Shown here: positions 1-49,181 of the stretch, piece by piece
Numbering within the stretch: position 1 is the stretch's first letter
Layout: the number at the start of each line of letters is the position of its first letter
From: Escherichia phage vB_EcoM_G2248
Strand: one strand, 5' to 3'
Sequence record: MK327932.1
DNA length: 64,000 nucleotides
Translations under genes and position numbers: made by a program
Notes under the pieces: model-generated
The model's database searches: none
What the model was told of the DNA's origin: nothing
Seen by the model: the letters and a program-made list of their open reading frames with translations, nothing else

Positions 1-1581
1 ACTACCAAAGAACTGATGGAAAAATGGTCCCCGCTGCTGGAAAACGAAAAACTGCCGGAAATCGCAACTGCGTCTAAGCAGAAACTGGTTGCTAAAATTC
101 TGGAATCTCAGGAAGCGGATTTTGCTGTAGACCCGATCTATAAAGATGAAAAAGTTGTTGAAGCATTTGGCGGCTTTATCACCGAAGCAGAAGTTGCTGG
201 CGACCACGGCTATGATGCATCCAAAATCGCCGCAGGTCAGACTACTGGTGCAATCACCAACGTAGGTCCGGCTGTTATCGGTATGGTTCGCCGTGCTATC
301 CCTAACCTGATCGCATTTGATATTTGTGGCGTTCAGCCGATGAGCACCCCGACTAGCCAGATCTTTGCAATCCGTTCTGTATACGGTGCTGATCCGCTTG
401 CTGTTGGTGCTAAAGAAGCATTCCATCCGATGTACTCTCCGAATGCATTCCATAGCTCTCTGGCTGCTAAAGGTGCAACTGTAGGTTCTCCGCTGGGTAC
501 GGCATTCCAGAAACTGGCTATGCAAAGTGCAATTCAGGCTGGCGATATCGTTCATCACACCTTCGCAGAAACTGGCATTGCATATCTGCAAAACGTTACC
601 GCAGAAGCAGTAACTCCGCAGAAAGCAGGGCAGGAAAGCGAAGATGAAGTAGTAATGAAACTGATGGAAGAATGTAAACTGGTCGAAATCGCTTTCGGTA
701 TGGCAACTTCCATCGCGGAAATTCAGGAAGGCTTTAACGGTTCTCAGAATAACCCGTGGGCTGAAATGTCAATGCGTATTGACAAACAGGTTGTTGAAGC
801 GAAATCTCGCCAACTGAAAGCCCGTTACTCTATCGAAGTTGCACAGGATCTGCGTGCTGTACACGGTATGGACGCTGACGCCGAACTGAATGCTATTCTG
901 GCTAACGAAGTTCTGCTTGAAATCAACCGTGAAATCGTTGATGTAATCAACTTTACCGCTCAGGTTGGTAAAACTGGTATGACTCAGACCGTTGGTTCTA
1001 AAGCTGGTGTATTTGACCTGCAAGACCCGATCGATACTCGCGGTGCTCGTTGGGCTGGTGAATCCTTCAAATCTCTGATCTACCAGATCGACAAAGAAGC
1101 TGCTGAAATCGCTCGTCAGACTGGTCGCGGTGCGGGTAACTTTGTTATCGCTTCCCGTAACGTTGTAAACATTCTGGCGTCTGCTGATCAGGGTATCAGT
1201 CTTGCTATGCAGGGTGCTGCAAAAGGTCTGAATACCGACACCACTAAAGCTGTTTTCGCTGGTGTTCTGGCTGGTAAGTACAAAGTATTCATCGACCAGT
1301 ATGCTCGTCAGGACTACTTCACCGTAGGTTACAAAGGCGACAACGAAATGGATGCTGGTATCTACTATGCTCCGTATGTTGCTCTGACTCCGCTGCGTGC
1401 AACTGACCCGCAGTCTTTCCATCCGGTTCTGGGCTTCAAGACTCGCTATGGCATCGGCATCAACCCGTTTGCTGACAGCAAATCCCAGGCGCCGTCCGCT
1501 CGCATCACCTCCGGTATGTTGAGCAAAGAAAGCGTAGGTAAAAACGCATACTTCCGCCGTGTATGGGTTAAAGGTTGCTAA
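1..1581 (+). CDS. 23: Major capsid protein gp23 (5' end outside window)
   Basis: Translation aligns along its length with T4 gp23 (e.g. RRAIPNLIAFDICGVQPM, GKNAYFRRV near C-terminus); reading frame is open from base 1, so the start lies upstream of the window. Confidence 0.95.
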   Translation, partial: TTKELMEKWSPLLENEKLPEIATASKQKLVAKILESQEADFAVDPIYKDEKVVEAFGGFITEAEVAGDHGYDASKIAAGQTTGAITNVGPAVIGMVRRAIPNLIAFDICGVQPMSTPTSQIFAIRSVYGADPLAVGAKEAFHPMYSPNAFHSSLAAKGATVGSPLGTAFQKLAMQSAIQAGDIVHHTFAETGIAYLQNVTAEAVTPQKAGQESEDEVVMKLMEECKLVEIAFGMATSIAEIQEGFNGSQNNPWAEMSMRIDKQVVEAKSRQLKARYSIEVAQDLRAVHGMDADAELNAILANEVLLEINREIVDVINFTAQVGKTGMTQTVGSKAGVFDLQDPIDTRGARWAGESFKSLIYQIDKEAAEIARQTGRGAGNFVIASRNVVNILASADQGISLAMQGAAKGLNTDTTKAVFAGVLAGKYKVFIDQYARQDYFTVGYKGDNEMDAGIYYAPYVALTPLRATDPQSFHPVLGFKTRYGIGINPFADSKSQAPSARITSGMLSKESVGKNAYFRRVWVKGC

Positions 1582-1590
1582 TTAAACTCC

Positions 1591-1615
1591 GGTCGGGTGC
1601 AATGCCCGACTTTAT
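1591..1615 (+). terminator. Hairpin after gene 23
   Basis: Inverted repeat GTCGGG/CCCGAC followed by a T-rich tract immediately after the gp23 stop. Confidence 0.5.
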
Positions 1616-1652
1616 CATAAACCTTATGACAGTGTAAAGTGTTAATTCCAAA

Positions 1653-1681
1653 GGGAAGACTCGAAAGGGTCTTCCCTTTTT
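1653..1681 (+). terminator. Rho-independent terminator after gene 23
   Basis: GGGAAGAC-loop-GTCTTCCC followed by TTTTT. Confidence 0.65.
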
Positions 1682-1697
1682 GCGTATTATATCCCGT

Positions 1698-1705
1698 TAT
1701 AAATA
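1698..1705 (+). promoter_or_regulatory. T4-type late promoter (TATAAATA)
   Basis: Exact TATAAATA about 40 nt upstream of the ORF starting at 1744. Confidence 0.6.
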
Positions 1706-1743
1706 AGGTTGCAAGCCTATATTCTAAGGGGAGCGAAAATTAG

Positions 1744-2052
1744 ATGCACACACTCATAAAGACCAAAACTCCAGCCGTTTCCGCACCCGTAAACTGTATT
1801 CATAGTTCTCACATGACCGTGCAAATGTCAGTTGAAGGGGTAAGGGAAGGGCAAAAAGTCATTGCGGAAGCCTTGTTAGAAGGTTCTCTAGATGGTAAAG
1901 GTTGGTTCACTATTTCAGAATTGAAAGCTGATGGTAATGAATATGCAACTGATGGTGGAGCGTTTGAAACATTATGGTCGTTTATTAGGGCAAATGTAAA
2001 ATCAGTATCTAATGATTCTACTGTAACGGTGTATCTTGCTAAACGGGGGTAA
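1744..2052 (+). CDS. Hypothetical late protein (102 aa)
   Basis: ORF with GGGGAG Shine-Dalgarno about 12 nt upstream of the ATG; downstream of a late promoter; no recognisable homology. Confidence 0.4.
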   Translation: MHTLIKTKTPAVSAPVNCIHSSHMTVQMSVEGVREGQKVIAEALLEGSLDGKGWFTISELKADGNEYATDGGAFETLWSFIRANVKSVSNDSTVTVYLAKRG

Positions 2053-2056
2053 TTAT

Positions 2057-3769
2057 ATGAAGCTAAATCCACAAGCTATCATTAGTGCTGGTTCCGTGAG
2101 TGGTGGTTGTTCTGGTGGTATTCAGATCGGGACTAACGTACCTAGCGGAATTAAAAATACCCATCGTTTCGAAAATGAAGAAGCGAGGGATACATATTTT
2201 ACCGAACATTTTCCAGAATTAGATAGACTAAAAACAATTATTGTTTGCGGTGCTAAACTTCAATTATGGACTGGTAATACAGCACAATCCCCGTATGATA
2301 ATTCTAAATGGGTCGATATGACCTGGGTGATTCAGGGCGAACAAGGTATTACTGGAGAGAAAGGCGAAAATGGACGTGGAATTGCTAGAATCGCAGCACA
2401 ATTATCTGACGATGATCGAAACTGGACTCTAGAAATTACATATACAGACTCAACGCAAGAATCTTTAGTATTTCCTGTTCCAGATGTATTAGCAAACTTC
2501 GTACAGCGTTTAAACGCAATCGAAGTAAAATGGACAACAACCAATCCAATCAACAATCTCGGGGTCGCTATATCACCCGGACGCTATCCGGTAGGTGATG
2601 CAACTTATGGAAAACCTCCAATGATGGCGAATAAGGGGTCCGCAGATGTATATGTCGTTGATGGTAGCGTTATTCAGGTGGTCCGTTCTGTTGATGGTGG
2701 CGTTTACACTCGTATCCGACACAATGGAGAATGGAGTGAATGGAACTCTCAAAACGATGGTGGAATTGGTGGCGGTGGTTTAACTGGTGATCAGGAAGCT
2801 ATGCTAACAAGTCTAAGCACTCGTTTACCGGAGACGTCACCAGAAATACTGGATTTAAACACTCTGACTAAACAAGGTCGCTTTTGTTATTTTGAAGGGA
2901 CCGCAAACCGTCCGAATGGAGCACAAGCACACGGTTCAGTAGACGTACATTCGTGTAAAAACTATGTGTTACAGATTGCAACCAGTGTAGAAGGGGTAAT
3001 GTATCATCGCTCATACACAAAGAAAACTGATTCATGGTCCGAATGGACACAGATCAGCGATCATACTGGAGGGGCGACAATATATGAGTTCCCTCGTGTG
3101 TCTAGTGTGTTCACGACCGCACAAAGTTTAATCGAGGCAACAACACCGGGTACTGGAGGCGGGGCATTTTATATTCCGTGGAAATATGTCATTCATGATA
3201 ACTATGGGTGTACACCACGGATATCAGAGCCAGTTAGACAGAACGATGCCGATCATTGGTGGGTGTGTCCGAAATATGGAAGTTATGACATGGAATTGAT
3301 TTTTGATGTTGGTTTTATTAAAACACCACAAACAATTCCTCCTATCTTTACAATCACGGTATGGCATCGATTAACCGACGGTCGAGAACAACAAGCAGCA
3401 CGTTATCAGATTGGATTAGATGTATCACAAAAAAACCAAACATCAAAATCGCTAAAATTGAGAATGACTCACATTACATCGGGAGAGATGTTCCGGTGGC
3501 ATGTTTCATTTAATGGTGGTAGTTGGTCGGCAAGCGATAACCCAGATGTTTCCCTTGTACCATTCCGAACATTGCTGATGGTCGATGAAGTGGAACACGA
3601 TTCAGCAAAACGAATTGGTTCGTTAGCATACAACACATGGGCGAATTTTCAAGCTAGAAAAGGTCTGGCGGCGACTGTAAGTGAAGACGAATTAAAAAAA
3701 GCTCGTCTTAATGCCGTTAAATGGAGCGCATCAATCGAAAGTGTTGATGCATCTCAGGACGACCAATAA
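2057..3769 (+). CDS. Hypothetical late protein (~570 aa) with short collagen-like G-X-Y stretch
   Basis: Long ORF; ATG at 2057 preceded by GGGGG RBS; contains GEQGITGEKGENGRG (five consecutive G-X-Y triplets) and Gly-rich tracts; no T4 counterpart at this position. Confidence 0.55.
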   Translation: MKLNPQAIISAGSVSGGCSGGIQIGTNVPSGIKNTHRFENEEARDTYFTEHFPELDRLKTIIVCGAKLQLWTGNTAQSPYDNSKWVDMTWVIQGEQGITGEKGENGRGIARIAAQLSDDDRNWTLEITYTDSTQESLVFPVPDVLANFVQRLNAIEVKWTTTNPINNLGVAISPGRYPVGDATYGKPPMMANKGSADVYVVDGSVIQVVRSVDGGVYTRIRHNGEWSEWNSQNDGGIGGGGLTGDQEAMLTSLSTRLPETSPEILDLNTLTKQGRFCYFEGTANRPNGAQAHGSVDVHSCKNYVLQIATSVEGVMYHRSYTKKTDSWSEWTQISDHTGGATIYEFPRVSSVFTTAQSLIEATTPGTGGGAFYIPWKYVIHDNYGCTPRISEPVRQNDADHWWVCPKYGSYDMELIFDVGFIKTPQTIPPIFTITVWHRLTDGREQQAARYQIGLDVSQKNQTSKSLKLRMTHITSGEMFRWHVSFNGGSWSASDNPDVSLVPFRTLLMVDEVEHDSAKRIGSLAYNTWANFQARKGLAATVSEDELKKARLNAVKWSASIESVDASQDDQ

Positions 3770-3786
3770 TTAGCGGGGGGTGATTG

Positions 3787-4716
3787 ATGACTGACATTAA
3801 GGCAAAAATTAGCCAGTTGCAAACTGATTTTGTTCAAGGCGAGATCACACATTTCACCGGAAACGAATCAAATGCTCTAATGGAAAGTGATGTTGAAAGA
3901 ATTTCAAATTCAATCAACACTCAATTAATTGATCCTGTAATTGATTTTGTTATTGCTTGTGATGAAGTAATAGCAGAAACAGCAAGCGAGGCACATCAAG
4001 CGGCAGAAGTAGCAAAAAATACTGCTGACGTGGCAGACCGAACGGCAGGTCAATCCATGAGTATGGCAACTGATGCAATTGCTAAAGCTACTACCGCTGA
4101 ATCAGAAGCAACACGAGCACACACCCGATTAGATGAACTGAATATTCCAACAATGCCTAATCTTGATAACCAGACATGGAACTGGCTATCAAGATCTTTT
4201 GATAGTGTCAGTATTAGAGTTGGTAATGGTGTAACATTAGCTGACTCTAATACTAAACCACATATCACATGGACACCAATTCGCCAAAACTTTGAAACAG
4301 GTAGCTATTACGTTGAAGGACGTTTTGAAGCTCGTTTTAAAGTAATGGTTCGAGATTGGATTCAGGGCGAAGGTGGTAATATTGTTTATCTGGCAGGAAT
4401 TGATAGTTTAGCGTCATTTAACGGTTGGATTTATCTGGATGGTTTATCATCTACGGATACGATGAAAACAACCAATATTCAGATTAACGCATACACACAA
4501 AAAGACTCGCAAGTAGTATTTGGCGCTAGTGCTGTTGCGTCTATGTCAGATTCAACAAAAGTTAAAATGGCGTTATTCGTAAACGTAGGAACAGATAGAT
4601 TTGATCAATATACAGATCCGGTCTATGTCGACCTTGTTATGACATTCCAGCGTGACGCTAGCGGTAATTTTGGTTTTGGTACGTTGTTCCCAGAATTAAC
4701 CCCATCTTCTTCATAA
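3787..4716 (+). CDS. Hypothetical late protein (~309 aa), N-terminal helical/coiled-coil-like
   Basis: ATG at 3787 preceded by GCGGGGGG RBS; N-terminal Ala/Glu/Thr-rich heptad-like region; no recognisable homology. Confidence 0.5.
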   Translation: MTDIKAKISQLQTDFVQGEITHFTGNESNALMESDVERISNSINTQLIDPVIDFVIACDEVIAETASEAHQAAEVAKNTADVADRTAGQSMSMATDAIAKATTAESEATRAHTRLDELNIPTMPNLDNQTWNWLSRSFDSVSIRVGNGVTLADSNTKPHITWTPIRQNFETGSYYVEGRFEARFKVMVRDWIQGEGGNIVYLAGIDSLASFNGWIYLDGLSSTDTMKTTNIQINAYTQKDSQVVFGASAVASMSDSTKVKMALFVNVGTDRFDQYTDPVYVDLVMTFQRDASGNFGFGTLFPELTPSSS

Positions 4717-4726
4717 GGAGGAAGGC

Positions 4727-4879
4727 ATGAGTAAGAAAGAAAACGGCTATGTTATGACTCGTAAGGAATACGACGAATTGATGTTAGCATTAGCGTATGC
4801 GATTATTCGTTCTGATCATGCAATTAATCTGGTGCACAAAGTCAATCGTAGTGTTGATAATGTTGCTAGGAAGAAGTAA
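4727..4879 (+). CDS. Small hypothetical protein (50 aa)
   Basis: ATG 7 nt after a strong AGGAGGAAGG RBS; ends just before a terminator hairpin; below the 60-aa ORF-track cut-off. Confidence 0.35.
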   Translation: MSKKENGYVMTRKEYDELMLALAYAIIRSDHAINLVHKVNRSVDNVARKK

Positions 4880-4888
4880 TTTTATTTT

Positions 4889-4916
4889 GGGAATCCTTCG
4901 GGATTCCCTTTTCTTT
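4889..4916 (+). terminator. Rho-independent terminator
   Basis: GGGAATCC-TTCG-GGATTCCC followed by a T-run. Confidence 0.65.
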
Positions 4917-4919
4917 TTG

Positions 4920-4927
4920 TATAAATA
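4920..4927 (+). promoter_or_regulatory. T4-type late promoter (TATAAATA) for gene 24
   Basis: Exact TATAAATA about 38 nt upstream of the gp24 ATG at 4965. Confidence 0.65.
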
Positions 4928-4964
4928 TGATATATCCATTAAGGCAAATACAGGATTCATAAAC

Positions 4965-6206
4965 ATGACTCATATTTTTACTGAACTGTTGCGGGAATCT
5001 ACTTCCTCAGTAGCTAACCAGACAGCGCGACCGCAACTATTATCACTGACTCGCGCGGTAAACAACCTGATTTTCTCTGATCTGGTGGCAATCCAACCAA
5101 CCGATCAACCAGTATCTGCATTGTACGGCCTACGTTATCTTAATCATGATGGTCAGATGACGTTCCGGACCGCTGCAACCTATGGCGGTGCTGTTGGTGA
5201 TCGTTCTGATATTGAAGAATTTTCACAAGAAAAATCCTATGATGTAGGAGCAAAATTTAAATCAGGCGATGTTGTATACGAAGTTGTAACCGCTGGTACA
5301 GTAGGTGCAGATGCAGCCACGCCCGAAGCCGCAATTTTTAAAGGTGTGATGACAAATCAGATTCGCTTCTATAGCGACTGTGCACCTGTAGAATACTTTG
5401 AAGATAAAAACACAGAGATCTCATCAACGTCAATGCAGTTTGATAAGTGGCAGGTTAATGTAGGTTCTCGTAAATTGAAAACCTCGTTCACCACTGAATT
5501 AATGCAGGATCTTGAAGCAAGCCAAATCAACTCTGAAAACTCTGTAATTGATCTTCTGGCTACTGTCGCTTCCGAAGAGATCAACAAAGATATTATACAG
5601 AAGTTGATCACTGTATCAACTCGCTATAAAATTAAAGGGATCACCCCTGATGGCGTACTTTCTCTAGTTAGCGTTCAGGACGCACCAAAACAAGCTCGCG
5701 AACTTTACCGCTATGCTTGCGAAATGAGCAATCAAATGTTGCGTACTTCCTCCTTTGCTGGCACATACGTTTTGGCGTCTTCTCGCGTGGTTGGTCTCCT
5801 GCAATCTACCGGATGGATGGAAGAAACCGACAATGCTCTAAGCGAAGGCCGTCTACGCTGTGGTCTGGAAGTGTACGCAGATACGGTAACTCCGTTTGAT
5901 TATATGGTCGTTGGCTGTAAACACATGATCGGTGATATGGAGAGTGTAGGTTCTCTTTTCTACTCCCCATACACAGAAGCCGATGGCGCTGGCGCATATA
6001 AGAGCGTAATCGATCCTAACAGCTTCCAACACCATGTAGCTATTATGAATCGTTATTCACTCTCTGTCAACCCATACACAGCAAAAGTTGACCAAGAAGA
6101 ACACCAGGTCATCAAGGGTGACGAGTGGGCTAAACTTGCTGGACGTTCAGAAATGTCCTACATTTTAGGTATCGAACTGCCACCGCTTGAGATTGACAAC
6201 TCTTAA
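4965..6206 (+). CDS. 24: Capsid vertex protein gp24
   Basis: From MTHIFTELLRESTSS... the translation parallels the T4 gp24 N-terminus and is gp23-like in fold; the track's 4797 start is an upstream in-frame extension. Confidence 0.85.
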   Translation: MTHIFTELLRESTSSVANQTARPQLLSLTRAVNNLIFSDLVAIQPTDQPVSALYGLRYLNHDGQMTFRTAATYGGAVGDRSDIEEFSQEKSYDVGAKFKSGDVVYEVVTAGTVGADAATPEAAIFKGVMTNQIRFYSDCAPVEYFEDKNTEISSTSMQFDKWQVNVGSRKLKTSFTTELMQDLEASQINSENSVIDLLATVASEEINKDIIQKLITVSTRYKIKGITPDGVLSLVSVQDAPKQARELYRYACEMSNQMLRTSSFAGTYVLASSRVVGLLQSTGWMEETDNALSEGRLRCGLEVYADTVTPFDYMVVGCKHMIGDMESVGSLFYSPYTEADGAGAYKSVIDPNSFQHHVAIMNRYSLSVNPYTAKVDQEEHQVIKGDEWAKLAGRSEMSYILGIELPPLEIDNS

Positions 6207-6794
6207 CTAAATATCTAACCAAGACAAGTCAGATCCGCCCAAGATTTTTTCGACGGCGGATCTATTTTCTTGATGATATAAGTTAAAACATGGTATCCCA
6301 TGTCTACGGGCAACATAAACAGCAATTCGAGTTCCGCCCGAAACAATACCATTAACTTCTTTCGCCCAAAATAACACACAATCTACAGGATCATCAAGTG
6401 TCTCACCTAAGACTTGAGCAACATTTCTAGAAAACAGATTTTGCATGTATAGCGGTATAGAACGAGGATTATCATAAACGTGTTCTAATTCATCCATCGC
6501 CAGATTCTTTTGCTCTAGAGTCTGCCACGCAATCACATCACGACCATTATGCTTATGATCGTAAAACTTCCAATTTGGAATGAAAATTTTTCTATAATCT
6601 GGGTCGTAATACTTCATGAAAGCATTGTCCATACCGTAAGCCCCTCCAGAATGCGCTACAACGCGATTTTCTGACAATACCCTCCCAATGGCACTAGCCA
6701 TTATCAAAATGTCGTTAGGCGCTTTTCTAGAGCCTATAAGAGCACATCTACGAAGTGGTTTTACTCCAAATAGATCTTGTAACTGGTCAAACAT
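6207..6794 (-). CDS. DprA/Smf-like (SLOG-type Rossmann) protein
   Basis: Motif pattern ALIGSRKAP...A..GR.L......VAHSGGAYGMD resembles the DprA/Smf core (GSR ... SGGA.G.D); ATG at 6794 with GGAGG RBS. Confidence 0.45.
   Translation of the reverse strand: MFDQLQDLFGVKPLRRCALIGSRKAPNDILIMASAIGRVLSENRVVAHSGGAYGMDNAFMKYYDPDYRKIFIPNWKFYDHKHNGRDVIAWQTLEQKNLAMDELEHVYDNPRSIPLYMQNLFSRNVAQVLGETLDDPVDCVLFWAKEVNGIVSGGTRIAVYVARRHGIPCFNLYHQENRSAVEKILGGSDLSWLDI
6231..6270 (+). terminator. Hairpin terminator after gene 24
   Basis: AGATCCGCC...GGCGGATCT inverted repeat followed by a T-rich tract; it overlaps the 3' end of the convergent minus-strand ORF. Confidence 0.5.
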
Positions 6795-7175
6795 AATATT
6801 TTCCTCCATAGAAAGCAGTATCATATTACAAGTTAATAACAAATACAAGTATCCGCGTAGCGGAAGCGAGCACAGCGAGCATTAAAACACTTCCAGTAAC
6901 TGATTAATAAATGTTCGAAACAAATTTTTATTATTCTATAAGATAAGTCTTCGTTTTGTTCATAATTTAATCATACATGTAAAAACTACACAAAAAGGAT
7001 ATCGCTTCGCGAACTCCTACGGAGTATAACATTTGTGTTACAATATGTAGTGATTAATAATTAACCAAAGATACATTTTCTATGTTCTAAAGATCTTTCT
7101 TCGTTTTGGTCACAATTTAATCAAACAGTATTAATATTGTCCACATGTAAACTAAATCATGATGATTTGTGGATA

Positions 7176-7201
7176 CAAAAAAGCCGCCCCGAAGGACGGC
7201 T
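7176..7201 (-). terminator. Rho-independent terminator (minus strand)
   Basis: On the minus strand: TAGCCGTCCTTCGGGGCGGC followed by TTTTTT, immediately downstream of the ORF ending at 7210. Confidence 0.6.
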
Positions 7202-7209
7202 AATGTTAA

Positions 7210-7647
7210 TTATTTGTTGATAACGATCTGATTTCGGCGAATGGTAACATTGCTCTTAGAGATGATCAGATCATCCGGCACTACGTTCGTTTTGTATGGC
7301 TGGAAGCGAACAAGCATCTGATTGCGTTTAGAACCTTCCTTAATCTTGATTTCCATCTGGATATTGTTGCCTACGTGAGCAATAGCAATTTGACCTTTGT
7401 TCTCATAGACCCACTTGCTGGTAACGTCGCCAGCGAAAGCCTTAATAACTTGCAATGCTTCGTCGTATGCAGTAGAGCTATGAACGTTCAGAAGACCAGC
7501 CGTCGCCAGACGTGAGCAAGTGATCGCTGGAGATTGCCAAACATCAACATTGATTTGCTCAATCAGAGCAACACCGCCATGATCAACTGCTTTGAATGCT
7601 TCAAACATTGCTTTTTTCATTGCTACGTGGTTTTTACGGAATTTCAT
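7210..7647 (-). CDS. Hypothetical protein (145 aa)
   Basis: ORF followed by its own terminator; no recognisable homology. Confidence 0.5.
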   Translation of the reverse strand: MKFRKNHVAMKKAMFEAFKAVDHGGVALIEQINVDVWQSPAITCSRLATAGLLNVHSSTAYDEALQVIKAFAGDVTSKWVYENKGQIAIAHVGNNIQMEIKIKEGSKRNQMLVRFQPYKTNVVPDDLIISKSNVTIRRNQIVINK

Positions 7648-7693
7648 AATTAGTCACCTCTATTGATTAGTTATTCAGAATATTAATTACAAA

Positions 7694-7972
7694 TCAGGAC
7701 ATTGCCCGTTTGAATGCGTCCATTATAACAGTGTTTTTCGGCTTGTCAACACGTTTTTGAACTTTATTTTTAATTTTTTTGTTGATGTGGTGTTTACGAT
7801 AAACAACCTTTTCACGGTTGGCGTAAGCCTCGCGTGCATCTTTCACCATCAACCATGCCTTAGCCGCATCTTGTCCGCTGATCCCGCCAATCTTCTTAGC
7901 AATATCAACAAAATTAAGACCGTGGTCTTCTCGTAGCATGTAAACCATTAACGCTGTTTTCCTGTCCATCAC
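7694..7972 (-). CDS. Small putative helix-turn-helix DNA-binding protein (92 aa)
   Basis: Segment LNFVDIAKKIGGISGQDAAKAW resembles an HTH; basic C-terminal tail; ATGA start/stop overlap with the upstream gene. Confidence 0.4.
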   Translation of the reverse strand: MMDRKTALMVYMLREDHGLNFVDIAKKIGGISGQDAAKAWLMVKDAREAYANREKVVYRKHHINKKIKNKVQKRVDKPKNTVIMDAFKRAMS

Positions 7973-8166
7973 TTCGCCTCATTGACGATTAACAGGATAG
8001 TGATCAGTACCGGAAACTGGATCATGACAGTACCAAAAAACCGGATAAACGCATTTTCTGACTTCCACACATTACATGCTGCTAGCTGATAGCACAATGT
8101 TGCAACCAGAGCAAGAATATACACAGAAAGTGGTGTAACTTCGATCAGTCGGGAAATCTCATTCAT
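7969..8166 (-). CDS. Small membrane protein (65 aa, two predicted TM helices)
   Basis: Two hydrophobic stretches (VYILALVATLCYQLAA and VMIQFPVLITILLIV). Confidence 0.4.
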   Translation of the reverse strand: MNEISRLIEVTPLSVYILALVATLCYQLAACNVWKSENAFIRFFGTVMIQFPVLITILLIVNEAK

Positions 8167-8289
8167 ACTTCACCTCATACATTCATAAACACAACAACGA
8201 ATAGAACAGTAACAGTTATTAAAGCCATTTTCAACCCCATATTCATAATATTTTCTTCGCCTCACTATGACAGTAGCATGTCGATGCGT

Positions 8290-8320
8290 GCCATTATAGG
8301 CATCTAAATCGCTCTGTCAA
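8290..8320 (-). promoter_or_regulatory. Sigma70-type early promoter (minus strand)
   Basis: On the minus strand: TTGACA, 16-nt spacer, TATAAT, upstream of the small membrane-protein gene. Confidence 0.5.
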
Positions 8321-8331
8321 GCGCAAAAAAA

Positions 8332-8358
8332 CAAAAAAGCCACCCCGAAGGATGGCTT
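8332..8358 (-). terminator. Rho-independent terminator (minus strand)
   Basis: AGCCACCCC-GAAG-GATGGCT hairpin with a T-run on the minus strand, downstream of the Hoc-like gene. Confidence 0.6.
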
Positions 8359-8363
8359 AATGG

Positions 8364-9593
8364 TTAAAGTGGCGGAGCTTCGCGTATACGAAGAACTCTT
8401 TCTAGTGTCTCTCGATCTAAGTGATGGAATTTGCTTGCATTGTAGCTATAACCATTTCTGGATTCCATACAAATACAATCGCCGTATTTTTCCTCTGCTG
8501 CCGCGATCGTCTCCAGGTCTTTGGCATATCGACTACGGGAATATACTTCTCTGTGTCTCCATTCTAAGTTTAACTCATTGAATTTAACAATCTCGTCAAA
8601 TACCCACCAGCCAATATAGATAAACGACGTTCTACGCCACGGAAGCGGATGGACATAACGGAACATAGTATGAAGAGACTCGACTATGTTCATCTGGCAT
8701 TTGGTACTGATTACAAATCCTACCTCAACACGAGTTCCGTCAATGGTTTGAAAGAGTTTAGCTATACACCAGAAAGTAGCATGATCGTCCTGTGTCGCTC
8801 TTTCTTTGTATAGTGTGCCGTTAGGTAAAATTGAAAATCCCTCTGATATCTCTCCTATGGTGTTTCCTAATAATACCTTATCTTGTCCTTCTCGTTGTAG
8901 ATACCAGTTGTATTGGATGGATAGCGGTGGCATATCGCTATTATCGCCTACAATGTCCTCTGACACAAAATACTGCAATATGATTGGATAACCTATTGCT
9001 ACGGTGTTATCTGCGTTCACATCGCGATCTACGCTCATTTTAGCGAGCATTACCTTAGAAGATGTTTTGTCGATTGAGTTTTCCGATTCACCCCAGACCG
9101 AGACAGTATACACCCCGTTATCGTCATCGCTAAATTCGTGTATTGTTAATGTGTCGCTTGTGTTGTCTAATACTCGACCGTCTTTCTCCCAGCGATAATG
9201 GAGAGTATATGTGTCTGACGGTGATTTTCCTGTGGAGTAACTAACCGTTGTTCGTAGGTCAACATCGGTTTTTGTCTGTACATAGAAATGAGTAGGTTCT
9301 GTTATTTTTACAACTAGTTCGGCCTCATCCATCCGCACCGCGTTACTGGTTGCTTCGTCTCCTGTGTCGGTATCGCGCACGGTTACTTTGTAAGACCCTG
9401 CATTTTCACTTGTTGCGTCAGAAATAGTTAACGTGTTAGTGTCGCCTTCTTGCGATTTATCGTCTTTTGTCCATGTATATGTTAGATTGCTTGGTGCAGG
9501 GTCATCCCCAGAATCCAAAGTCACCGTTAATGTGAACGTGTCACCAGCGAGAAAACATCTTTTATCCGATTTTAATTTAACGGTAAATGCCAT
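8364..9593 (-). CDS. hoc: Hoc-like capsid decoration protein (409 aa)
   Basis: Ig-like beta-rich repeats (e.g. GSYKVTVRDTDTGDE, GVYTVSVWGESENS) plus a C-terminal domain shared with the next ORF (RYVHPLPWRRTSFIYIGWWVFDEI); position matches T4 hoc. Confidence 0.7.
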   Translation of the reverse strand: MAFTVKLKSDKRCFLAGDTFTLTVTLDSGDDPAPSNLTYTWTKDDKSQEGDTNTLTISDATSENAGSYKVTVRDTDTGDEATSNAVRMDEAELVVKITEPTHFYVQTKTDVDLRTTVSYSTGKSPSDTYTLHYRWEKDGRVLDNTSDTLTIHEFSDDDNGVYTVSVWGESENSIDKTSSKVMLAKMSVDRDVNADNTVAIGYPIILQYFVSEDIVGDNSDMPPLSIQYNWYLQREGQDKVLLGNTIGEISEGFSILPNGTLYKERATQDDHATFWCIAKLFQTIDGTRVEVGFVISTKCQMNIVESLHTMFRYVHPLPWRRTSFIYIGWWVFDEIVKFNELNLEWRHREVYSRSRYAKDLETIAAAEEKYGDCICMESRNGYSYNASKFHHLDRETLERVLRIREAPPL

Positions 9594-9644: not shown

Positions 9645-12185
9645 TTAAAATAACTGTGTTCCGTCAACCAGATAACCGTTACGAGATTCAAGTACATGCG
9701 TATTGCTGTAATGATGCAGCGATGCCGCGATAGTCTCGATCTCATCTGGATATTTGGTATGCTCAAAATCTTCCAGCCAGTTTAATCCAGATTTAAGGCA
9801 TCGTTCGATCTCATCCATGACCCAATACCCTTGATATTGGAACGAGGTACGACGCCACGGGATGGGATGCACATAACGTTTAAGTGTCGCTTTAGTAAAC
9901 ACAATGCGAACTTTTTCTGTGTGTGCAACATGGCCTTCGTCGTCCTTGACGACCGCGTAATATGTTGCTTCATGGTTCTCTTTAGTCAACTCACCATGAG
10001 GGATAGTCAAAACTTTTTGAGTTGCCCCAGGAATTGTTTTGTCTATGCCTCCTTTGACTTTATGCCACTGCCAACTAACTACTTTATCATCATCGACGTG
10101 TTCAGCGTGCGCTTCCAGCTTAACGTCTTGCTCTTGACCTTCTTTTGCCACAACATCAACCGGATGTTTGATAATGTTGATGTTTTGATGTGGAGCCATA
10201 GTGATTTCTGCCGGATTAGTTTCTACAGTTGTTTCTGCGGCTGTAATAACGGCAGTATAACGACCTACGTCAGAAGGTTTAACATGCTCGATGATAAGAG
10301 TTTCCGAGTTTTCCCCTGGAATAATAACACCATCTTTTTTCCACTGATAAGTTGGTTTTATGCCAATCGTATTAGTGGCTTGAGCGTGTAAAATAACTCT
10401 CTGGTTGAGGTTGACGTGAGCATCTTGCGGATGTATTGTAATTCGAGTATCGTTTTCAACAATCGACGGATCGTCGGTAATGATAACCCTTGCCGGATTG
10501 GTCATTTGCGATACACGATGTTCACCAAAACCCGCTGATACACGGCAGGTGTATACACCAGATGACGTTATCTGAGCGTGATCTTCACCATAAGAATTTC
10601 GTTGTTCGACACCAGCCGGGAAAAGATCTTTACCGTCTTTAAACCAGCGATAACGAACAGGTAGCGCATCATTCGAGGTTGCCTCAACTGAGATGGTCCA
10701 TACTCCACCAGAACGAACACTAATAGCGTGTGGCTGTTTAGTGATGTTCATAGTGGATTTGGTGGCGTCTACAGAAACCTGAACTTCATTGGAATCTTTA
10801 ACGATGCGATGATTCGAGATACCCATAGAAACCACGCATTTATAACGACCCTCGTCGGCTTTAGTGATAGCAGAAAAATGTAATGAATCCGAAGTTTTAT
10901 TTGGGATCAACTCATTATCCTTATACCACTGATAATCTAATTTGAAATGTTCATAATTAGACGTTGCTCGACAAGTAAGAGTTTGAGATGAACTCACACG
11001 AACGTTATTGATCGGCTGTGGTTGTTGGGTGATCGTGATCACCGGAGATGACCCGACCAGAAGTGTTGCTACCTCTGATTCGGTGATCTGATTATTTCCA
11101 TATGTAATTCGAGCTTTGAATTTAGCCTCATTAACATCATTGGTCGCCGGAATGATTTTTAACTCTTTTTCCGTTTCTCCAACGATAGGAGTAAATTCAC
11201 CTTCTTCTTTTTTCTGGCGTAGCCACTGTATTTTAACATTGGTGTAATTTGTTACATAATCAACACTTAGTACCGCTGGCGTTAATGCCGGAACATTAGT
11301 GTTTAATGGCTGTCGGGAAATTCGGAAATATGAACGTCCAGACACAACAACATTACAATCTTTAGAATAAACTACAGTACCCCCTTGACGAACTTCGAGA
11401 CGCCAGATCCCAGCATCGGCTTGTGTTACATACGGGATGATCATTGCTGTACCGTCTTGATCGATGATCTTTTTCCCGTTATGAATCCATGTGTACTCAA
11501 TATCACGAGTTGCATCATCGGACCTTACCGTAACTTCTAAATCCAAACGAGCATCTTCTAATACGGTGACAGTATCAGAATAATGTTCTTCGATGTGAAT
11601 TACTGGCGGTTTATCGTTTTCTTCCACAACAACCGGACTAATACGGTAATATGCTCGTGCGTCCTGGATAACAAATACTTTACAAGTATAATTGCCGAAG
11701 TCTTCACGAGATACCCTATCAACGTGTACGTTTTTAGCTTGTACTTTGTTGGGGTCAATCATAACATGATCTTTATACCAGATTGTATCAAATTGATAAC
11801 CGTCTTCGACAATCGGAGTGGCAAAAACATCAAGTGCTTCGCCAATTCGTTTGTAGATGTAAGTCGGAGATTGGTCTTGTGGTGCGATAAATGGAATACG
11901 CTCAACCAAAATCGGATCAATATCCACATAATCCAGTGGATTCTCTTTCAATTTGACACGCGCGGTATATGTGCCAAATTGTTCTTGAGTCAATTCGGCA
12001 ATGTACAGAGATTGGTCTGGTTCTGCAACTTGATCCGCTGGCACACTCTGACCGTTTAGCTTCCATTCTACGATATAGTCTTTAAAATCTGATGTACTTA
12101 CTACCAATTTAAGAACAAGTTCATGTCCCACTGATGCGTGGACAGGACCAGTAGTTTGATGTAAAATATTGATTTTATCAGACAT
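9645..12185 (-). CDS. Giant Hoc-like protein (846 aa) with multiple Ig-like domains
   Basis: Repeated ~90-aa Ig-like modules (conserved W...Y.C/Y.V patterns, e.g. GRYKCVV, GVYTCRV, GNYTCKV) and a C-terminal domain paralogous to the neighbouring Hoc-like gene (RYVHPIPWRRTSFQYQGYWVMDEI). Confidence 0.7.
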   Translation of the reverse strand: MSDKINILHQTTGPVHASVGHELVLKLVVSTSDFKDYIVEWKLNGQSVPADQVAEPDQSLYIAELTQEQFGTYTARVKLKENPLDYVDIDPILVERIPFIAPQDQSPTYIYKRIGEALDVFATPIVEDGYQFDTIWYKDHVMIDPNKVQAKNVHVDRVSREDFGNYTCKVFVIQDARAYYRISPVVVEENDKPPVIHIEEHYSDTVTVLEDARLDLEVTVRSDDATRDIEYTWIHNGKKIIDQDGTAMIIPYVTQADAGIWRLEVRQGGTVVYSKDCNVVVSGRSYFRISRQPLNTNVPALTPAVLSVDYVTNYTNVKIQWLRQKKEEGEFTPIVGETEKELKIIPATNDVNEAKFKARITYGNNQITESEVATLLVGSSPVITITQQPQPINNVRVSSSQTLTCRATSNYEHFKLDYQWYKDNELIPNKTSDSLHFSAITKADEGRYKCVVSMGISNHRIVKDSNEVQVSVDATKSTMNITKQPHAISVRSGGVWTISVEATSNDALPVRYRWFKDGKDLFPAGVEQRNSYGEDHAQITSSGVYTCRVSAGFGEHRVSQMTNPARVIITDDPSIVENDTRITIHPQDAHVNLNQRVILHAQATNTIGIKPTYQWKKDGVIIPGENSETLIIEHVKPSDVGRYTAVITAAETTVETNPAEITMAPHQNINIIKHPVDVVAKEGQEQDVKLEAHAEHVDDDKVVSWQWHKVKGGIDKTIPGATQKVLTIPHGELTKENHEATYYAVVKDDEGHVAHTEKVRIVFTKATLKRYVHPIPWRRTSFQYQGYWVMDEIERCLKSGLNWLEDFEHTKYPDEIETIAASLHHYSNTHVLESRNGYLVDGTQLF

Positions 12186-12264: not shown

Positions 12265-12993
12265 TTACTTGAGTGTGTGAAATTGGCTATGTTTGGTTTC
12301 CCGTACCTTGACAGACCCATCACGTTTGATATAATAGATCAGTGACTTGAGGGTGTCGTGTACATACGCGTGAGGGAAACGCTCTGGATACTTCTTCCAA
12401 TCTGGAGTATTAACGATCCAGTCGAAAATCCACCACGGGCATGAGTAGTAACCACGACCGCCACCGATCAAACAAATGGTTGGACGGAAACCAGTAAGAT
12501 CGCAAAATGAATCAGTATCATGTGCAGGAGAACGATGCTCTGCTTCGTCAGAGAAAATGTTTGCTACCGGAGATTCCACTTTAACTTCCGGTACAACCAC
12601 AATTTCAACTGGTACTGTGTGTGGTTCGGCTTCTTCTACAACTGTAACTGTAATTGTAATTGGTTCTTCTTTTTGTTCTGGTTCTTTCATTGCTTCAACC
12701 AGAGACGGATCAACTTCGTCGAATACCACTTTATCATCTGCGGTATCTGCTGCCAGAATAAGGTCGTTAATGCTGGTTCCCTCTTCCTGGGTTTCTTCTT
12801 CCATTTCGGATGCCAGTTTAGTTAATTCTGTTTCTACGAACTCGATCATGTTCTCTAGTGATAGCGTCTTTTTGACCTTGATGTCAAATTGTTTTGCGTA
12901 GTCCGCTAATTCTGTTTTAGCGGCTTTCTGTGCTTCTTTGTCGTCGGACGCCGCAATAGCGCGGAGTTCTTCGAAATATTCTTTATCAAACAT
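12265..12993 (-). CDS. inh: Inh-like protein (possible prohead protease inhibitor)
   Basis: Assignment is by position only (T4 order hoc-inh-uvsW); acidic Glu/Pro/Val-rich central region; no motif confirmation. Confidence 0.35.
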   Translation of the reverse strand: MFDKEYFEELRAIAASDDKEAQKAAKTELADYAKQFDIKVKKTLSLENMIEFVETELTKLASEMEEETQEEGTSINDLILAADTADDKVVFDEVDPSLVEAMKEPEQKEEPITITVTVVEEAEPHTVPVEIVVVPEVKVESPVANIFSDEAEHRSPAHDTDSFCDLTGFRPTICLIGGGRGYYSCPWWIFDWIVNTPDWKKYPERFPHAYVHDTLKSLIYYIKRDGSVKVRETKHSQFHTLK

Positions 12994-15959: not shown

Positions 15960-16589
15960 TCAAAGAATTTTAAGGAAACTGGATAGACCTGATAATGAAT
16001 ATACACCAGATTCCCCGCATTCGCACTTGATCGGTACTGCCAGCGTGATTTGATTTCTTGTTAGCTCGTCGATCACTTCTTCCACTTTATCCGTGGTAAG
16101 CATATCCAGCAAGCGGTCAAAGTCCTGTGCGTTCAGGTCGTCTATATTGAATTGCTGATCGCCGATCACGATATATTCGATACATGCAATTACCATCTGC
16201 ATAATATCAACATCTTCTGTAAACTTAGGTTGACGAAACTTGATTTTTACTTGTCCTAAGTCTAAAATATATGGTTCAACTTCTGGTATCTGTGTGCGTG
16301 AAACATCAAGAGAGTATACTTTCTCTTTATTGCATACACCACACACCCAAGTAGCATCAATTTTCATCTTATTGAGGCTGTGACACCATAAGAGAAGAAA
16401 AATATATTCTGCTTCGCATTTCTCTAGCTCTAATGCATTGATCCCCGTACATTCATGTATGATCTCTATAACAACCTCTGACAGCTTGCCAGTCTCTTTT
16501 GCTGCTACCAGTTTTTGAAATTCGCCGAAGGTGAAAGCACGGGCGTGTATCAACTTTTCGCCTAATTGGATCTTGAAAAAGTATTGCAT
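15960..16589 (-). CDS. 26: Baseplate hub protein gp26
   Basis: Position and size (209 aa) match T4 gene 26 between 25 and 51; overlaps gene 25 start. Confidence 0.7.
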   Translation of the reverse strand: MQYFFKIQLGEKLIHARAFTFGEFQKLVAAKETGKLSEVVIEIIHECTGINALELEKCEAEYIFLLLWCHSLNKMKIDATWVCGVCNKEKVYSLDVSRTQIPEVEPYILDLGQVKIKFRQPKFTEDVDIMQMVIACIEYIVIGDQQFNIDDLNAQDFDRLLDMLTTDKVEEVIDELTRNQITLAVPIKCECGESGVYSLSGLSSFLKIL

Positions 16590-16631
16590 AATAAAACACC
16601 CTTTATAAACACATAGAATTATTTAGTATTT

Positions 16632-16639
16632 TATAAATA
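16632..16639 (+). promoter_or_regulatory. T4-type late promoter (TATAAATA) for gene 51
   Basis: Exact TATAAATA about 21 nt upstream of the gene 51 ATG. Confidence 0.55.
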
Positions 16640-16659
16640 CCCGAAAGGGGGATTATACC

Positions 16660-49180: not shown

Positions 49181-49181
49181 G

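What the first reader, a model, noticed from the sequence alone, without database searches (positions are those of the whole stretch)
1698..4879. Late-promoter-driven gene insertion between capsid genes 23 and 24
Between the gp23 terminators and the gp24 late promoter lies an independent unit: a TATAAATA late promoter (1698), then ORFs of 102, ~570 and ~309 aa and a 50-aa ORF, ended by a terminator (4889). T4 has only a homing endonuclease gene in this interval. The 570-aa protein has a short collagen-like G-X-Y run and Gly-rich tracts, and the 309-aa protein has a helical, coiled-coil-like N-terminus. Late expression next to head genes suggests additional virion components such as capsid fibres or decoration, but no similarity was recognised.
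Basis: partly seen in the sequence, partly recalled or inferred. Interest (0 to 1): 0.6.

Follow-up and report, generated by a model that had tools for sequence, protein, structure and literature searches.

The report
Accessory fibre genes between head genes
Between the two main head-protein genes of this RB49-type (T4-like) phage lies a real, late-expressed, uncharacterised gene set for two extra fibre-shaped proteins and a small partner protein. It is an old feature that most sequenced relatives have lost by deletion, not a recent insertion.

Summary
A TATAAATA late promoter (1698), four tightly packed ORFs (102, 570, 309 and 50 aa) and a terminator (4889-4908) lie between gp23 and gp24 of a Krischvirus.

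The "insertion" reading does not hold. Phi1/RB49-type relatives keep the promoter, a dead ORF102 start, a 66-nt piece of ORF570 and the 3' end of ORF309. The short form is therefore a deletion derivative.

- **ORF309** has a conserved 60-aa anchor, an 85-residue helix and a beta-sandwich head. Paralogues in relatives keep the anchor and vary the stalk.
- **ORF102** belongs to a 45-cluster family. In other T4-like genera it also sits between gp23 and gp24, and elsewhere it precedes esterase-like or beta-helix-like proteins. In the stronger family members the next gene starts with M-x-L-N-P-x-A-like residues.

All four ORFs are under purifying selection.

The best reading is a dispensable accessory virion-fibre module. 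Head versus tail attachment is unresolved. No proteomics, microscopy or literature on these genes exists.

The parts
16..1581 (+). gp23 major capsid protein gene (3' 521 codons); left neighbour
   Evidence: 95-96% aa identity to annotated gp23 of Phi1 and Brandy
1591..1611 (+). First stem-loop after gp23 (weak terminator)
   Evidence: 8-bp stem, -12.9 kcal/mol, z -3.1
1650..1684 (+). Second, strong terminator after gp23
   Evidence: 13-bp stem, -20.9 kcal/mol, z -5.1, then UUUUU
1698..1705 (+). T4-type late promoter TATAAATA of the cassette
   Evidence: Exact match. Conserved with its leader in Brandy, JK32 and Phi1. 46 nt from its first base to the ORF102 ATG.
1744..2052 (+). ORF102: small conserved partner protein (proposed adaptor for the N-terminal peptide of the next gene's product)
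   Evidence: phrog_16217, function unknown. Family of 45 clusters of 94-113 aa with no Pfam family. Homologues between gp23 and gp24 in 44RR2.8t, phage 31, IME13 and L015. It is the most conserved cassette protein; dN/dS 0.09-0.14.
2057..3769 (+). ORF570: modular fibre protein (whole gene)
2057..2140 (+). ORF570 aa 1-28: conserved N-terminal peptide MKLNPQAII (aa 1-14) plus Gly/Ser-rich linker
   Evidence: Most conserved segment, 83% mean pairwise identity. The motif M-x-[LIVY]-[NG]-[PV]-x-[AS]-[FILV] was found only in genes that follow ORF102 homologues: 15 of 4709 candidate starts in 364 kb.
2141..2380 (+). ORF570 aa 29-108: widespread N-module (F..eaRDtYF...LQLW.G) running directly into a 5-triplet G-X-Y run (aa 94-108)
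   Evidence: Many hits have their best stretch here, at N-termini or inside large proteins, and several are followed by Pfam Collagen repeats. Also in a crAss-like contig, in the region downstream of its capsid and ring-protein genes.
2549..3061 (+). ORF570 aa 165-335: two tandem knob domains separated by a Gly-rich linker (aa 233-241)
3086..3736 (+). ORF570 aa ~344-560: C-terminal head module with a C1q/TNF-like jelly roll (best modelled at aa 400-530)
3787..4716 (+). ORF309: coiled-coil fibre with a conserved N-anchor (aa 1-60), a helix (aa 33-117) and a beta-sandwich head (aa 136-292)
4727..4879 (+). ORF50: small helical-looking ORF, co-transcribed but not dependent on the fibre genes
   Evidence: phrog_16600. 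Intact at 90% aa identity in Phi1, which lacks the fibre genes. Absent from L004 and L015.
4889..4918 (+). Terminator closing the unit
   Evidence: 8-bp stem with a UUCG loop, -14.2 kcal/mol, z -3.8, then a U-rich tail
4920..4927 (+). Late promoter of gp24 (right boundary)
   Evidence: TATAAATA; gp24 is 4965-6206, 95% identical to Phi1 gp24

Best explanation
The interval is a late-transcribed, dispensable accessory-fibre module of the virion.

**ORF570.** It most likely forms a trimeric fibre. A conserved N-terminal peptide on a flexible Gly/Ser linker docks it. An N-module nucleates a very short collagen-like segment. Two pyocin-type knobs form the shaft, and a C1q/TNF-like trimeric head is the distal ligand-binding tip.

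**ORF309.** It forms a second, short fibre: a 60-aa anchor, a trimeric alanine-zipper-like coiled coil of about 85 residues, and a beta-sandwich head.

**ORF102.** This is the conserved small partner. It most likely acts as the adaptor that receives the N-terminal peptide of the protein encoded next to it and ties it to the particle.

**Function.** The fibres would add a reversible first contact with surface glycans or proteins and so modulate adsorption and host range. They are not needed for infection of laboratory hosts.

**History.** The module predates the genus. It was lost in the RB49/Phi1 clade by at least two deletions, along with a second Hoc-like gene.

**What is shown:** the transcription signals, gene integrity and purifying selection, domain folds and modules, distribution, and deletion remnants.

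**What is inferred:** trimer state, presence in virions, the adaptor role of ORF102, and ligand binding. Where the fibres sit is unresolved; I put the head at roughly 55% and the tail, neck or baseplate at 45%.
For: **Transcription unit.**
- Promoter, tight packing, no internal + strand terminator and a closing terminator.
- Promoter position and conservation.

**Functional genes.**
- dN/dS 0.09-0.21.
- Intact in SSG23, UPWr_E1, JK32 and all metagenomic copies examined.

**Fibre nature of ORF570.**
- PHROG tail-fibre hits.
- 359 modular relatives. N-module relatives continue into true collagen repeats.
- The anchor is conserved and the distal part more variable, as in receptor-binding fibres.
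- dS of the fibre genes is 0.9-3.1, against 0.3-0.5 for the flanking head genes. This indicates allele exchange.

**ORF309.**
- Paralogues share the anchor and vary the stalk from 300 to 980 aa.

**ORF102 partnership.**
- ORF102 homologues lie between gp23 and gp24 in three further T4-like lineages:
  - Aeromonas phages 44RR2.8t and 31, and phage IME13.
  - The metagenomic T4-like locus L015.
- In 44RR2.8t, phage 31 and L015 a fibre gene follows the homologue. In 44RR2.8t it is ORF163w, which matches Phage_fiber_rpt and the Sf6-type needle knob (E 3.8e-27). In L015 it is a 675-aa collagen protein.
- ORF102 homologues also lie in Mu-like and E217-like phages, upstream of GDSL/SGNH-esterase-like proteins.
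- The shared N-terminal peptide motif is found only in those downstream genes.

**Dispensable and ancestral.**
- Remnants in Phi1.
- 53 of 58 Krischvirus records have the short form.
- The cassette is present in outgroup lineages.
Against: - There is no direct evidence that any of the products is in the virion. No proteomics or imaging of a cassette-bearing phage was found.
- The structure models are monomers. The N-terminal 109 residues of ORF570 are modelled poorly (pLDDT below 50).
- The G-X-Y run has only 5 triplets and does not reach the Pfam Collagen threshold.
- ORF102 has no detectable fold relatives. The only hints are a weak F5/8-type-C hit and PDB matches above E 0.2.
- The N-terminal motif was defined after looking at the data. 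It is absent or unclear in the three weakest family contexts (L020, L021, L031).
- Brandy carries a 1-nt deletion that splits ORF570.
Confidence: 0.65

Rival explanations
1. Head-fibre version. ORF102 binds the capsid lattice on gp23 hexamers or gp24 pentons. The three flexible N-terminal peptides of an ORF570 trimer plug into it, resolving the symmetry mismatch as the PRD1 P5 and adenovirus fibres do. ORF309-type fibres occupy further equivalent capsid sites.
For: - The position between the major capsid and vertex genes is kept in Krischvirus, Biquartavirus (44RR, 31), IME13 and L015.
- In an unrelated podovirus-like contig the ORF102 homologue is two genes after the major capsid gene.
- The clade that lost the cassette also lost a second Hoc-like capsid decoration gene, and perhaps a third.
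- Several paralogues share one anchor. That is easy to accommodate on a lattice with many equivalent sites, as for Hoc and Hoc2, which share a capsid-binding C-terminus.
Against: - Gene position is not evidence of location. T4 keeps tail and head genes interleaved.
- In Mu-like and E217-like phages the ORF102 module follows the tail-fibre and lysis genes, not the capsid genes.
- Domain homologues are annotated as tail fibres.
- No similarity of ORF102 to Soc, Hoc or other decoration proteins was found.
Confidence: 0.35
2. Tail-side version. The same proteins are extra side fibres attached to the baseplate, the sheath or the neck collar, in addition to gp34-37, gp12 and Wac.
For: - Knob domains are of the R-type pyocin/P2 tail-fibre type.
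- A faint XkdV_N (PBSX tail fibre) hit is on record for three homologues.
- The N-module occurs in a crAss-like contig downstream of its capsid and ring-protein genes.
- PHROG families hit are annotated as tail fibre.
- In Mu-like and E217-like phages the ORF102 module lies at the end of the tail and lysis block.
Against: - The window phage already has a full T4-type fibre set: gp34, gp35 and gp36 at 54.6-61.3 kb, and Wac and gp12 in relatives.
- No baseplate or neck gene differs by a large indel between Brandy and Phi1 that could supply a docking site.
- The locus is conserved among head genes in four T4-like lineages.
Confidence: 0.3
3. ORF102 is not a structural adaptor but an assembly chaperone, or a non-virion factor, for the downstream fibre or enzyme.
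For: - It is always encoded immediately upstream of its presumed client.
- It is small and has no recognisable fold.
- Phage fibres often need dedicated chaperones (established knowledge: T4 gp38 and gp57A, Tfa proteins).
Against: - Known fibre chaperones act on C-terminal domains and are usually encoded downstream.
- Here the feature that co-varies with ORF102 is the client's N-terminal peptide, while the clients' folds are unrelated: TNF-knob fibres, SGNH esterases, collagen.
- ORF102 is more conserved than the fibres, as expected of a part that contacts a conserved particle surface.
Confidence: 0.25
4. The products are not virion-bound. They are soluble late proteins released at lysis that bind or mask host surface structures, for example to keep progeny from adsorbing to debris.
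For: - In non-T4 phages the ORF102 module sits right after the lysis genes and includes GDSL esterase-like proteins.
- No virion evidence exists.
Against: - The architecture is a conserved N-terminal anchor, a long stalk and a distal head. Coiled-coil paralogues of up to 982 aa make sense only for anchored fibres.
- There are no signal peptides or enzymatic domains in the window proteins.
Confidence: 0.1
5. A recently inserted mobile cassette, such as a homing endonuclease or a moron with its own mobility, as in T4, where segD occupies this interval.
For: - The interval is a known variable spot; T4 has segD here.
- The unit is bracketed by terminator and promoter pairs.
Against: - No GIY-YIG, HNH or other nuclease, integrase or transposase domain is present.
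- There are no terminal repeats.
- Collinear decay remnants in Phi1 show loss, not gain.
- The cassette is present in outgroup lineages.
Confidence: 0.03

Closest known systems
PRD1 spike protein P5 (capsid-vertex fibre)
   Different: No sequence similarity (7% identity). ORF570 has two pyocin-type knobs in the shaft. P5 binds a double-jelly-roll capsid penton, and attachment of ORF570 is unknown. The P5 architecture is recalled from memory.
R-type pyocin / P2-type tail fibre (PA0620) knob domains
   Different: The sequence match is not significant on its own (E 0.46-0.55). The N-terminal baseplate-binding part and the C-terminal foot of the pyocin fibre are absent and are replaced by other modules.
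Collagen-stalked gC1q/TNF-head proteins (C1q, collagen VIII NC1, Bacillus BclA)
   Different: In the window protein the G-X-Y run has only 5 triplets and is separated from the head by about 290 residues of beta domains. Pfam Collagen is not matched.
Aeromonas phage 44RR2.8t ORF162w/ORF163w (and phage 31, IME13)
   Same: Same locus (gp23 - small ORF - fibre - gp24). ORF162w is an ORF102 homologue (38% identity, E 1e-10). ORF163w starts MILNPKAV and ends in a trimeric needle-knob domain.
   Different: There is one short fibre of 288 aa with different shaft and knob modules, no ORF309-type gene and no ORF50. It is annotated only as hypothetical.
T4 Hoc (and the Hoc-like genes of this phage)
   Same: A dispensable, late, surface-exposed adhesin-like accessory encoded in the head-gene region. 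It was lost together with the cassette in the RB49 clade (hoc2).
   Different: Hoc is a monomeric string of Ig-like domains with a C-terminal capsid-binding domain. The cassette proteins have no Ig domains and no Hoc C-terminal motif.
T4 fibritin (Wac) neck whiskers; phi29 gp8.5 head fibres
   Same: Dispensable trimeric fibres on a phage particle. ORF309 and its long paralogues resemble Wac in being coiled coils with a small N-terminal anchor.
   Different: No sequence or Pfam similarity. Krischvirus has its own wac. ORF309 ends in a 160-aa beta-sandwich, not a foldon. The properties of phi29 gp8.5 are recalled from memory only.
T4 segD (the occupant of the 23-24 interval in T4)
   Same: Same genomic interval (PMC2988022).
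   Different: segD is a GIY-YIG homing endonuclease gene in the opposite orientation without its own promoter. Nothing in the window cassette is nuclease-like.

Membership tests
T4-type late transcription unit | TATAAATA -10 element shortly upstream of the first gene, on the coding strand | tested here: met
   Exact match at 1698-1705, 46 nt before the ATG. Conserved in relatives. Five other matches precede known late genes.
T4-type late transcription unit | Transcription late in infection, dependent on gp55 and gp33 | not testable with these tools
   Needs RNA-seq or primer extension.
C1q/TNF-like trimeric head domain | Ten-strand jelly-roll fold superposable on TNF/C1q | tested here: met
C1q/TNF-like trimeric head domain | Homotrimer formed about the jelly-roll axis | not testable with these tools
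   Only monomer prediction was available.
Pyocin/P2-type tail-fibre knob domain | Knob fold and motif in tandem copies | tested here: met
Pyocin/P2-type tail-fibre knob domain | Significant sequence similarity to the family | tested here: inconclusive
   Profile against the PDB gives E 0.46-0.55. phrog_6578 'tail fiber protein', E 2e-4.
Collagen triple-helix repeat protein | Long uninterrupted (G-X-Y)n matching Pfam PF01391 | tested here: not met
   Only 5 triplets (aa 94-108) and no Pfam Collagen hit. Relatives that share the N-module do meet it: L015_675/P0064, E 2.3e-17.
Homing endonuclease (segD-like, GIY-YIG/HNH) | Nuclease catalytic domain | tested here: not met
   No such Pfam, PHROG or NCBIfam hit for any of the four ORFs.
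Hoc-type capsid decoration | Ig-like domains plus a Hoc C-terminal capsid-binding domain | tested here: not met
   No Ig hits in the cassette proteins. By contrast, hoc and hoc2 of the same window hit Ig_3 at 6e-14 and 1e-40.
Fibritin (Wac) | Fibritin N-domain, segmented coiled coil and C-terminal foldon | tested here: not met
   There is a coiled coil, but no fibritin or foldon Pfam hit. A separate wac gene exists in relatives.
Lpp/OprI alanine-zipper trimeric coiled coil | Score above the family threshold over the zipper | tested here: inconclusive
   Pfam 18.6 bits against a cut-off of 23.1. NCBIfam 20.2 bits against 43. Two homologues carry the precomputed hit.
Virion structural protein | Presence in purified particles | not testable with these tools
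   No proteomics of a cassette-bearing phage was found in the literature library.
ORF102 family (phrog_16217) | ~100-aa protein with the EGS.DG..W..I / DGG..E..W...R core | tested here: met
   E 1.3e-21 to phrog_16217. Alignment A5 has 13 invariant columns. 45 clusters.
ORF102 family (phrog_16217) | Followed by a gene whose product starts M-x-[LIVY]-[NG]-[PV]-x-[AS]-[FILV] plus a Gly-rich linker (feature proposed here) | tested here: met
   True for the window and for the stronger family members: the T4-like, Orisa/E217-like and Mu-like contexts. There were no other matches among 4709 candidate starts. Not true or unclear for L020, L021 and L031.

The most novel reading that the evidence does not exclude
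ORF102-family proteins and the short N-terminal peptide (M-x-L-N-P-x-A-like, on a Gly-rich tether) form a portable two-part docking system. Unrelated receptor-binding modules use it to hang on phage particles, and in T4-like phages on the capsid itself. The modules include collagen or TNF-knob fibres, SGNH esterases and a beta-helix-like protein. The 23-24 locus would then encode true head fibres. Together with multiple Hoc-like proteins, they would make the head of wild Krischviruses an adhesive organelle that laboratory-type RB49 relatives have shed.
Probability: 0.22. Interest if true: 0.75.

Novelty: new variant of a known kind. Interest (0 to 1): 0.5.

Why it matters
- **Annotation.** Every public record annotates these genes as hypothetical, and I found no study of them.
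- **RB49 as a model.** If the products are virion fibres, RB49-group phages, which are used as models and in therapy cocktails, come in two forms. A minority 'full' form carries extra fibres and an extra Hoc-like protein, with weaker evidence for another. The common form is stripped. That bears on host range, on adsorption to mucus or glycans, and on the choice of therapeutic isolates.
- **A possible docking rule.** The pairing of ORF102 with an N-terminal peptide, seen across T4-like, Mu-like and E217-like phages, may be a general rule for attaching accessory receptor-binding proteins. That would help annotate many 'hypothetical' fibre genes and help engineer display of binding modules.
- **Genome plasticity.** The locus shows that a 'hyperplastic' spot in T4-like genomes can be an ancient functional locus undergoing loss, rather than a landing pad.

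Tried and rejected
- **Direct family assignment.** Pfam, NCBIfam and PDB sequence searches on the four proteins gave nothing significant.
- **N-module against the PDB.** The only hit was a chance-level match to the N-terminus of the phage C1 tail protein (E 1.4).
- **ORF102 profile against the PDB and Pfam.** Only sub-threshold hints appeared: F5/8 type C at 0.0018 in 2 of 8 members, and the FlgD tudor domain at 0.049. I do not assign a fold.
- **BFVD fold search with ORF309.** It returned only the JK32 orthologue and weak hits.
- **Paralogues of either anchor elsewhere in the 64-kb window.** None was found.
- **Terminal repeats that would mark a mobile element.** Only short chance-level matches appeared.
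- **Do the cassette and hoc2 account for the whole Brandy-Phi1 size difference?** No. A whole-genome comparison shows other indels in both directions.
- **Scans of other collections.** The viral-contig scan gave only 2 further loci.
- **Vibrio siphophage hits to the N-module.** These were marginal (E 8e-4) and uninformative.
- **Literature.** Searches found no proteomics, microscopy or genetics for these genes.
- **Limits reached.** No multimer prediction was available.

Full report
**What the window is**

The window starts inside gene 23 of a T4-like phage of the genus Krischvirus (RB49/Phi1 group). gp23 and gp24 are 95% identical in protein to those of Phi1. The flanks of the finding are about 94% identical in DNA to many Krischvirus records. 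The phage itself is not in the phage collection: the best match over the cassette is 83.6%, and a 98% identical ORF570 exists only in a sequencing-run assembly.

**Check of the observation**

- gp23 ends at 1581 and is followed by two stem-loops: 1591-1611 at -12.9 kcal/mol, and 1650-1679 at -20.9 kcal/mol with a U-run.
- TATAAATA lies at 1698.
- Four ORFs follow with gaps of 4, 17 and 10 nt and good ribosome-binding sites: ORF102 (1744-2052), ORF570 (2057-3769), ORF309 (3787-4716) and ORF50 (4727-4879).
- A UUCG-loop hairpin with a U-rich tail closes the unit at 4889-4918.
- A second TATAAATA at 4920 serves gp24.

The octamer is not over-represented in the window as a whole (7 found, 5.3 expected). 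Its placement is telling, though. Six of the seven copies lie on the + strand, 28-46 nt upstream of ORF102, gp24, uvsW, gp51, gp34 and gp36. The promoter and leader are conserved in relatives. T4 has only segD in this interval, in antisense orientation (PMC2988022).

**Not an insertion but a locus that most relatives have lost**

Of 58 phage records that match the region, 5 carry the cassette: SSG23, SFHK24, Brandy, UPWr_E1 and JK32. The other 53 match only the flanks and have about 0.7 kb between gp23 and gp24.

In Phi1 that 0.7 kb is a collinear ruin of the cassette:
- the terminators, promoter, leader and first codons of ORF102, 96% identical, with ATG mutated to ATA;
- a 66-nt piece from the middle of ORF570, 79% identical, E 1.5e-11;
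- the last ~120 nt of ORF309 with a 1-nt indel, annotated as 'ORF161.1', which explains the phrog_20809 hit;
- an intact ORF50, the terminator and the gp24 promoter.

A whole-genome comparison of Brandy and Phi1 shows the same two deletions. Metagenomic relatives whose gp23 is only 82-87% identical to the window's, further away than Phi1, carry the cassette at the same place. Parsimony and the remnants both say the cassette is ancestral and was deleted in the RB49/Phi1 clade. No terminal repeats or mobility genes are present.

**The genes are functional**

dN/dS against JK32 and a metagenomic relative is 0.09-0.21 for all four ORFs, like gp23 and gp24. Synonymous divergence of the two fibre genes (0.9-3.1) is far higher than that of the flanking head genes (0.3-0.5). 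This indicates exchange of alleles with more distant relatives, as is usual for receptor-binding genes. ORF50 is a separate matter. It is kept at 90% identity in phages that lost the rest, so it does not depend on the fibre genes.

**ORF570**

The family is small and always full length (22 clusters). A profile search of 1.8 billion representatives shows the protein is a chain of modules, each found in many other proteins (359 hits). From the N-terminus the modules are as follows.
- **N-terminal peptide.** The peptide MKLNPQAII is highly conserved (83% mean identity) and is followed by a Gly/Ser linker.
- **N-module.** A ~65-aa module (F..eaRDtYF...LQLW.G...Y.N..W) runs straight into G-X-Y triplets. 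There are five triplets here, and long Pfam-grade collagen in relatives.
- **Beta domain.** A small beta domain follows.

All of these relatives are obligate trimers (established knowledge), so a trimeric fibre is the natural reading. The oligomeric state was not tested.

**ORF309**

The first 60 residues (F.QGE..TG...ALME.D...IS..IN..LI.PVIDF) are shared with additional genes in the same interval of relatives. JK32 has a 614-aa 'tropomyosin-like' protein there. A divergent contig (L004) has proteins of 454 and 982 aa. One anchor with stalks from 300 to 980 aa and different heads is the signature of interchangeable fibres that use one docking site.

**ORF102 and a possible docking rule**

ORF102 is the best conserved protein of the cassette. 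It belongs to a family of ~100-aa proteins without any Pfam family (45 clusters; alignment).

Homologues lie between gp23 and gp24 in other T4-like lineages:
- Aeromonas phages 44RR2.8t and 31;
- phage IME13;
- a metagenomic T4-like phage (L015).

In each case examined the next gene encodes a fibre.
- 44RR ORF163w has phage-fibre repeats and an Sf6-type needle knob (E 3.8e-27).
- L015 has a 675-aa protein with the same N-module and a long collagen stalk.

Homologues also occur in Mu-like and E217/Orisa-like myoviruses after the lysis genes. There they are followed by GDSL/SGNH-esterase-like proteins. In a podovirus-like contig the homologue sits two genes after the major capsid gene and is followed by a protein I read by eye as beta-helix-like, although Pfam found nothing in it.

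The proteins encoded directly downstream are unrelated in fold but begin alike: MKLNPQAI, MDINPSAV, MILNPKAV, MELNVGAF, MELGVGAF, MLIGPGAF, MDYGPGSL. A Gly/Ser-rich stretch follows each. A pattern written from these matched 15 of 4709 candidate starts in 364 kb of fetched sequence, and all 15 were exactly these genes. The pattern was defined after the fact. It fails or is unclear for the three most distant family members, so I treat it as a strong lead rather than a result.

The pattern suggests that ORF102 recognises the N-terminal peptide of its neighbour's product and links it to the particle. A flexible tether between the peptide and the trimer is what a threefold fibre needs in order to sit on a five- or sixfold site. 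Adenovirus and PRD1 fibres do this (recalled from memory).

**Head or tail?**

*For the head:*
- The locus is kept between the capsid and vertex genes in four T4-like lineages.
- In one unrelated phage the ORF102 homologue is near the capsid gene.
- The architecture is like the PRD1 vertex spike.
- The clade that deleted the cassette also deleted hoc2, an 846-aa second Hoc-like gene. Window 9645-12185 is reduced in Phi1 to the 54-aa fusion ORF168.1.
- That clade also lacks a 715-aa gene of Brandy that is weakly Hoc-like.

*For the tail:*
- All recognisable modules come from tail fibres.
- There is a faint XkdV_N hit.
- The N-module occurs in a crAss-like contig downstream of its capsid and ring-protein genes.
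- In Mu-like and E217-like phages the module follows the tail and lysis genes.

The phage already has a complete T4-type fibre set. No large indel in baseplate or neck genes distinguishes Brandy from Phi1. I cannot decide with these tools and lean slightly to the head.

**Comparison with the known, and novelty**

The parts are known kinds of module, so nothing here is categorically new. The combination is not described anywhere I could search, and every record calls these genes hypothetical. It has three elements:
- a promoter-to-terminator fibre unit embedded between the two capsid shell genes;
- a small conserved partner protein paired with an N-terminal peptide across very different phages;
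- a family of anchor-sharing coiled-coil fibres.

I therefore rate it a new variant of a known kind, of moderate interest. It would be considerably more interesting if the head-fibre and docking-system reading proves true.

Noticed in passing
window 9645-12185 (- strand); hoc at 8364-9593 (-), inh at 12265-12993 (-): A second, 846-aa Hoc-like gene has about 8 Ig-like domains (Ig_3 E 1e-40) and a Hoc-type C-terminal motif (RYVHPIPWRRTSF). It is present in all cassette-bearing relatives seen. In Phi1/RB49-type phages it is reduced to a 54-aa fusion ORF (ORF168.1) by a ~2.3-kb internal deletion.
   Followed up: partly
L023 (Brandy MZ504876.1) 47245-49392, - strand; outside the window: A 715-aa Brandy gene is absent from Phi1 (+1857 bp). 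It has a weak Ig_3 hit (E 1.2e-4) and a C-terminal stretch resembling the Hoc2 capsid-binding end (blastp E 3e-4), so it may be a third Hoc-like decoration gene. The three largest Brandy-only loci all encode surface-appendage-like proteins.
   Followed up: partly
L001 (Brandy) about 3725, corresponding to window ~2785: Brandy's ORF570 orthologue has a 1-nt deletion (AAA to AA), just after the Gly-run between the two knob domains. This splits it into two annotated CDS. SSG23, UPWr_E1, JK32 and all metagenomic copies are intact. It could be a sequencing error, a real inactivation or slippage.
   Followed up: partly
window 4727-4879: ORF50 (phrog_16600) is co-transcribed with the fibre genes but is kept intact at 90-94% aa identity in Krischviruses that deleted them. 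In those phages the orphaned late promoter at the position of 1698 would drive it. Its function is unknown, and it is absent from the divergent loci L004 and L015.
   Followed up: partly
L003 (JK32) 6689-8533; L004 3498-9061: The interval is expandable. JK32 adds a 614-aa coiled-coil protein. A divergent contig (L004) has three extra genes of 454, 982 and 382 aa. Two of them share the ORF309 N-anchor, and the third is a paralogue of the C-terminal part of the 982-aa protein without that anchor.
   Followed up: yes
window 2057-4716 against its flanks: Synonymous divergence of the two fibre genes (dS 0.9-3.1 against JK32 and L011) is several times that of gp23 and gp24 (0.3-0.5) in the same genome pairs. 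This points to recombinational exchange of fibre alleles inside an otherwise clonal head-gene block.
   Followed up: partly
L024 (Brandy) 15968-16663, - strand: A 232-aa ORF looks by eye like an HNH-type homing endonuclease. It is present in Brandy between the gp2/gp4 and gp53 regions and absent from Phi1 (+695 bp). Phi1 has other elements at different places: segC between genes 13 and 14, and ORF130.1. No domain search was run on it.
   Followed up: no
window 4797-6206: The mechanical ORF list extends gp24 upstream to an ATG at 4797, overlapping ORF50 and the terminator. Homology and the promoter at 4920 put the real start at 4965, giving a 413-aa product.
   Followed up: yes
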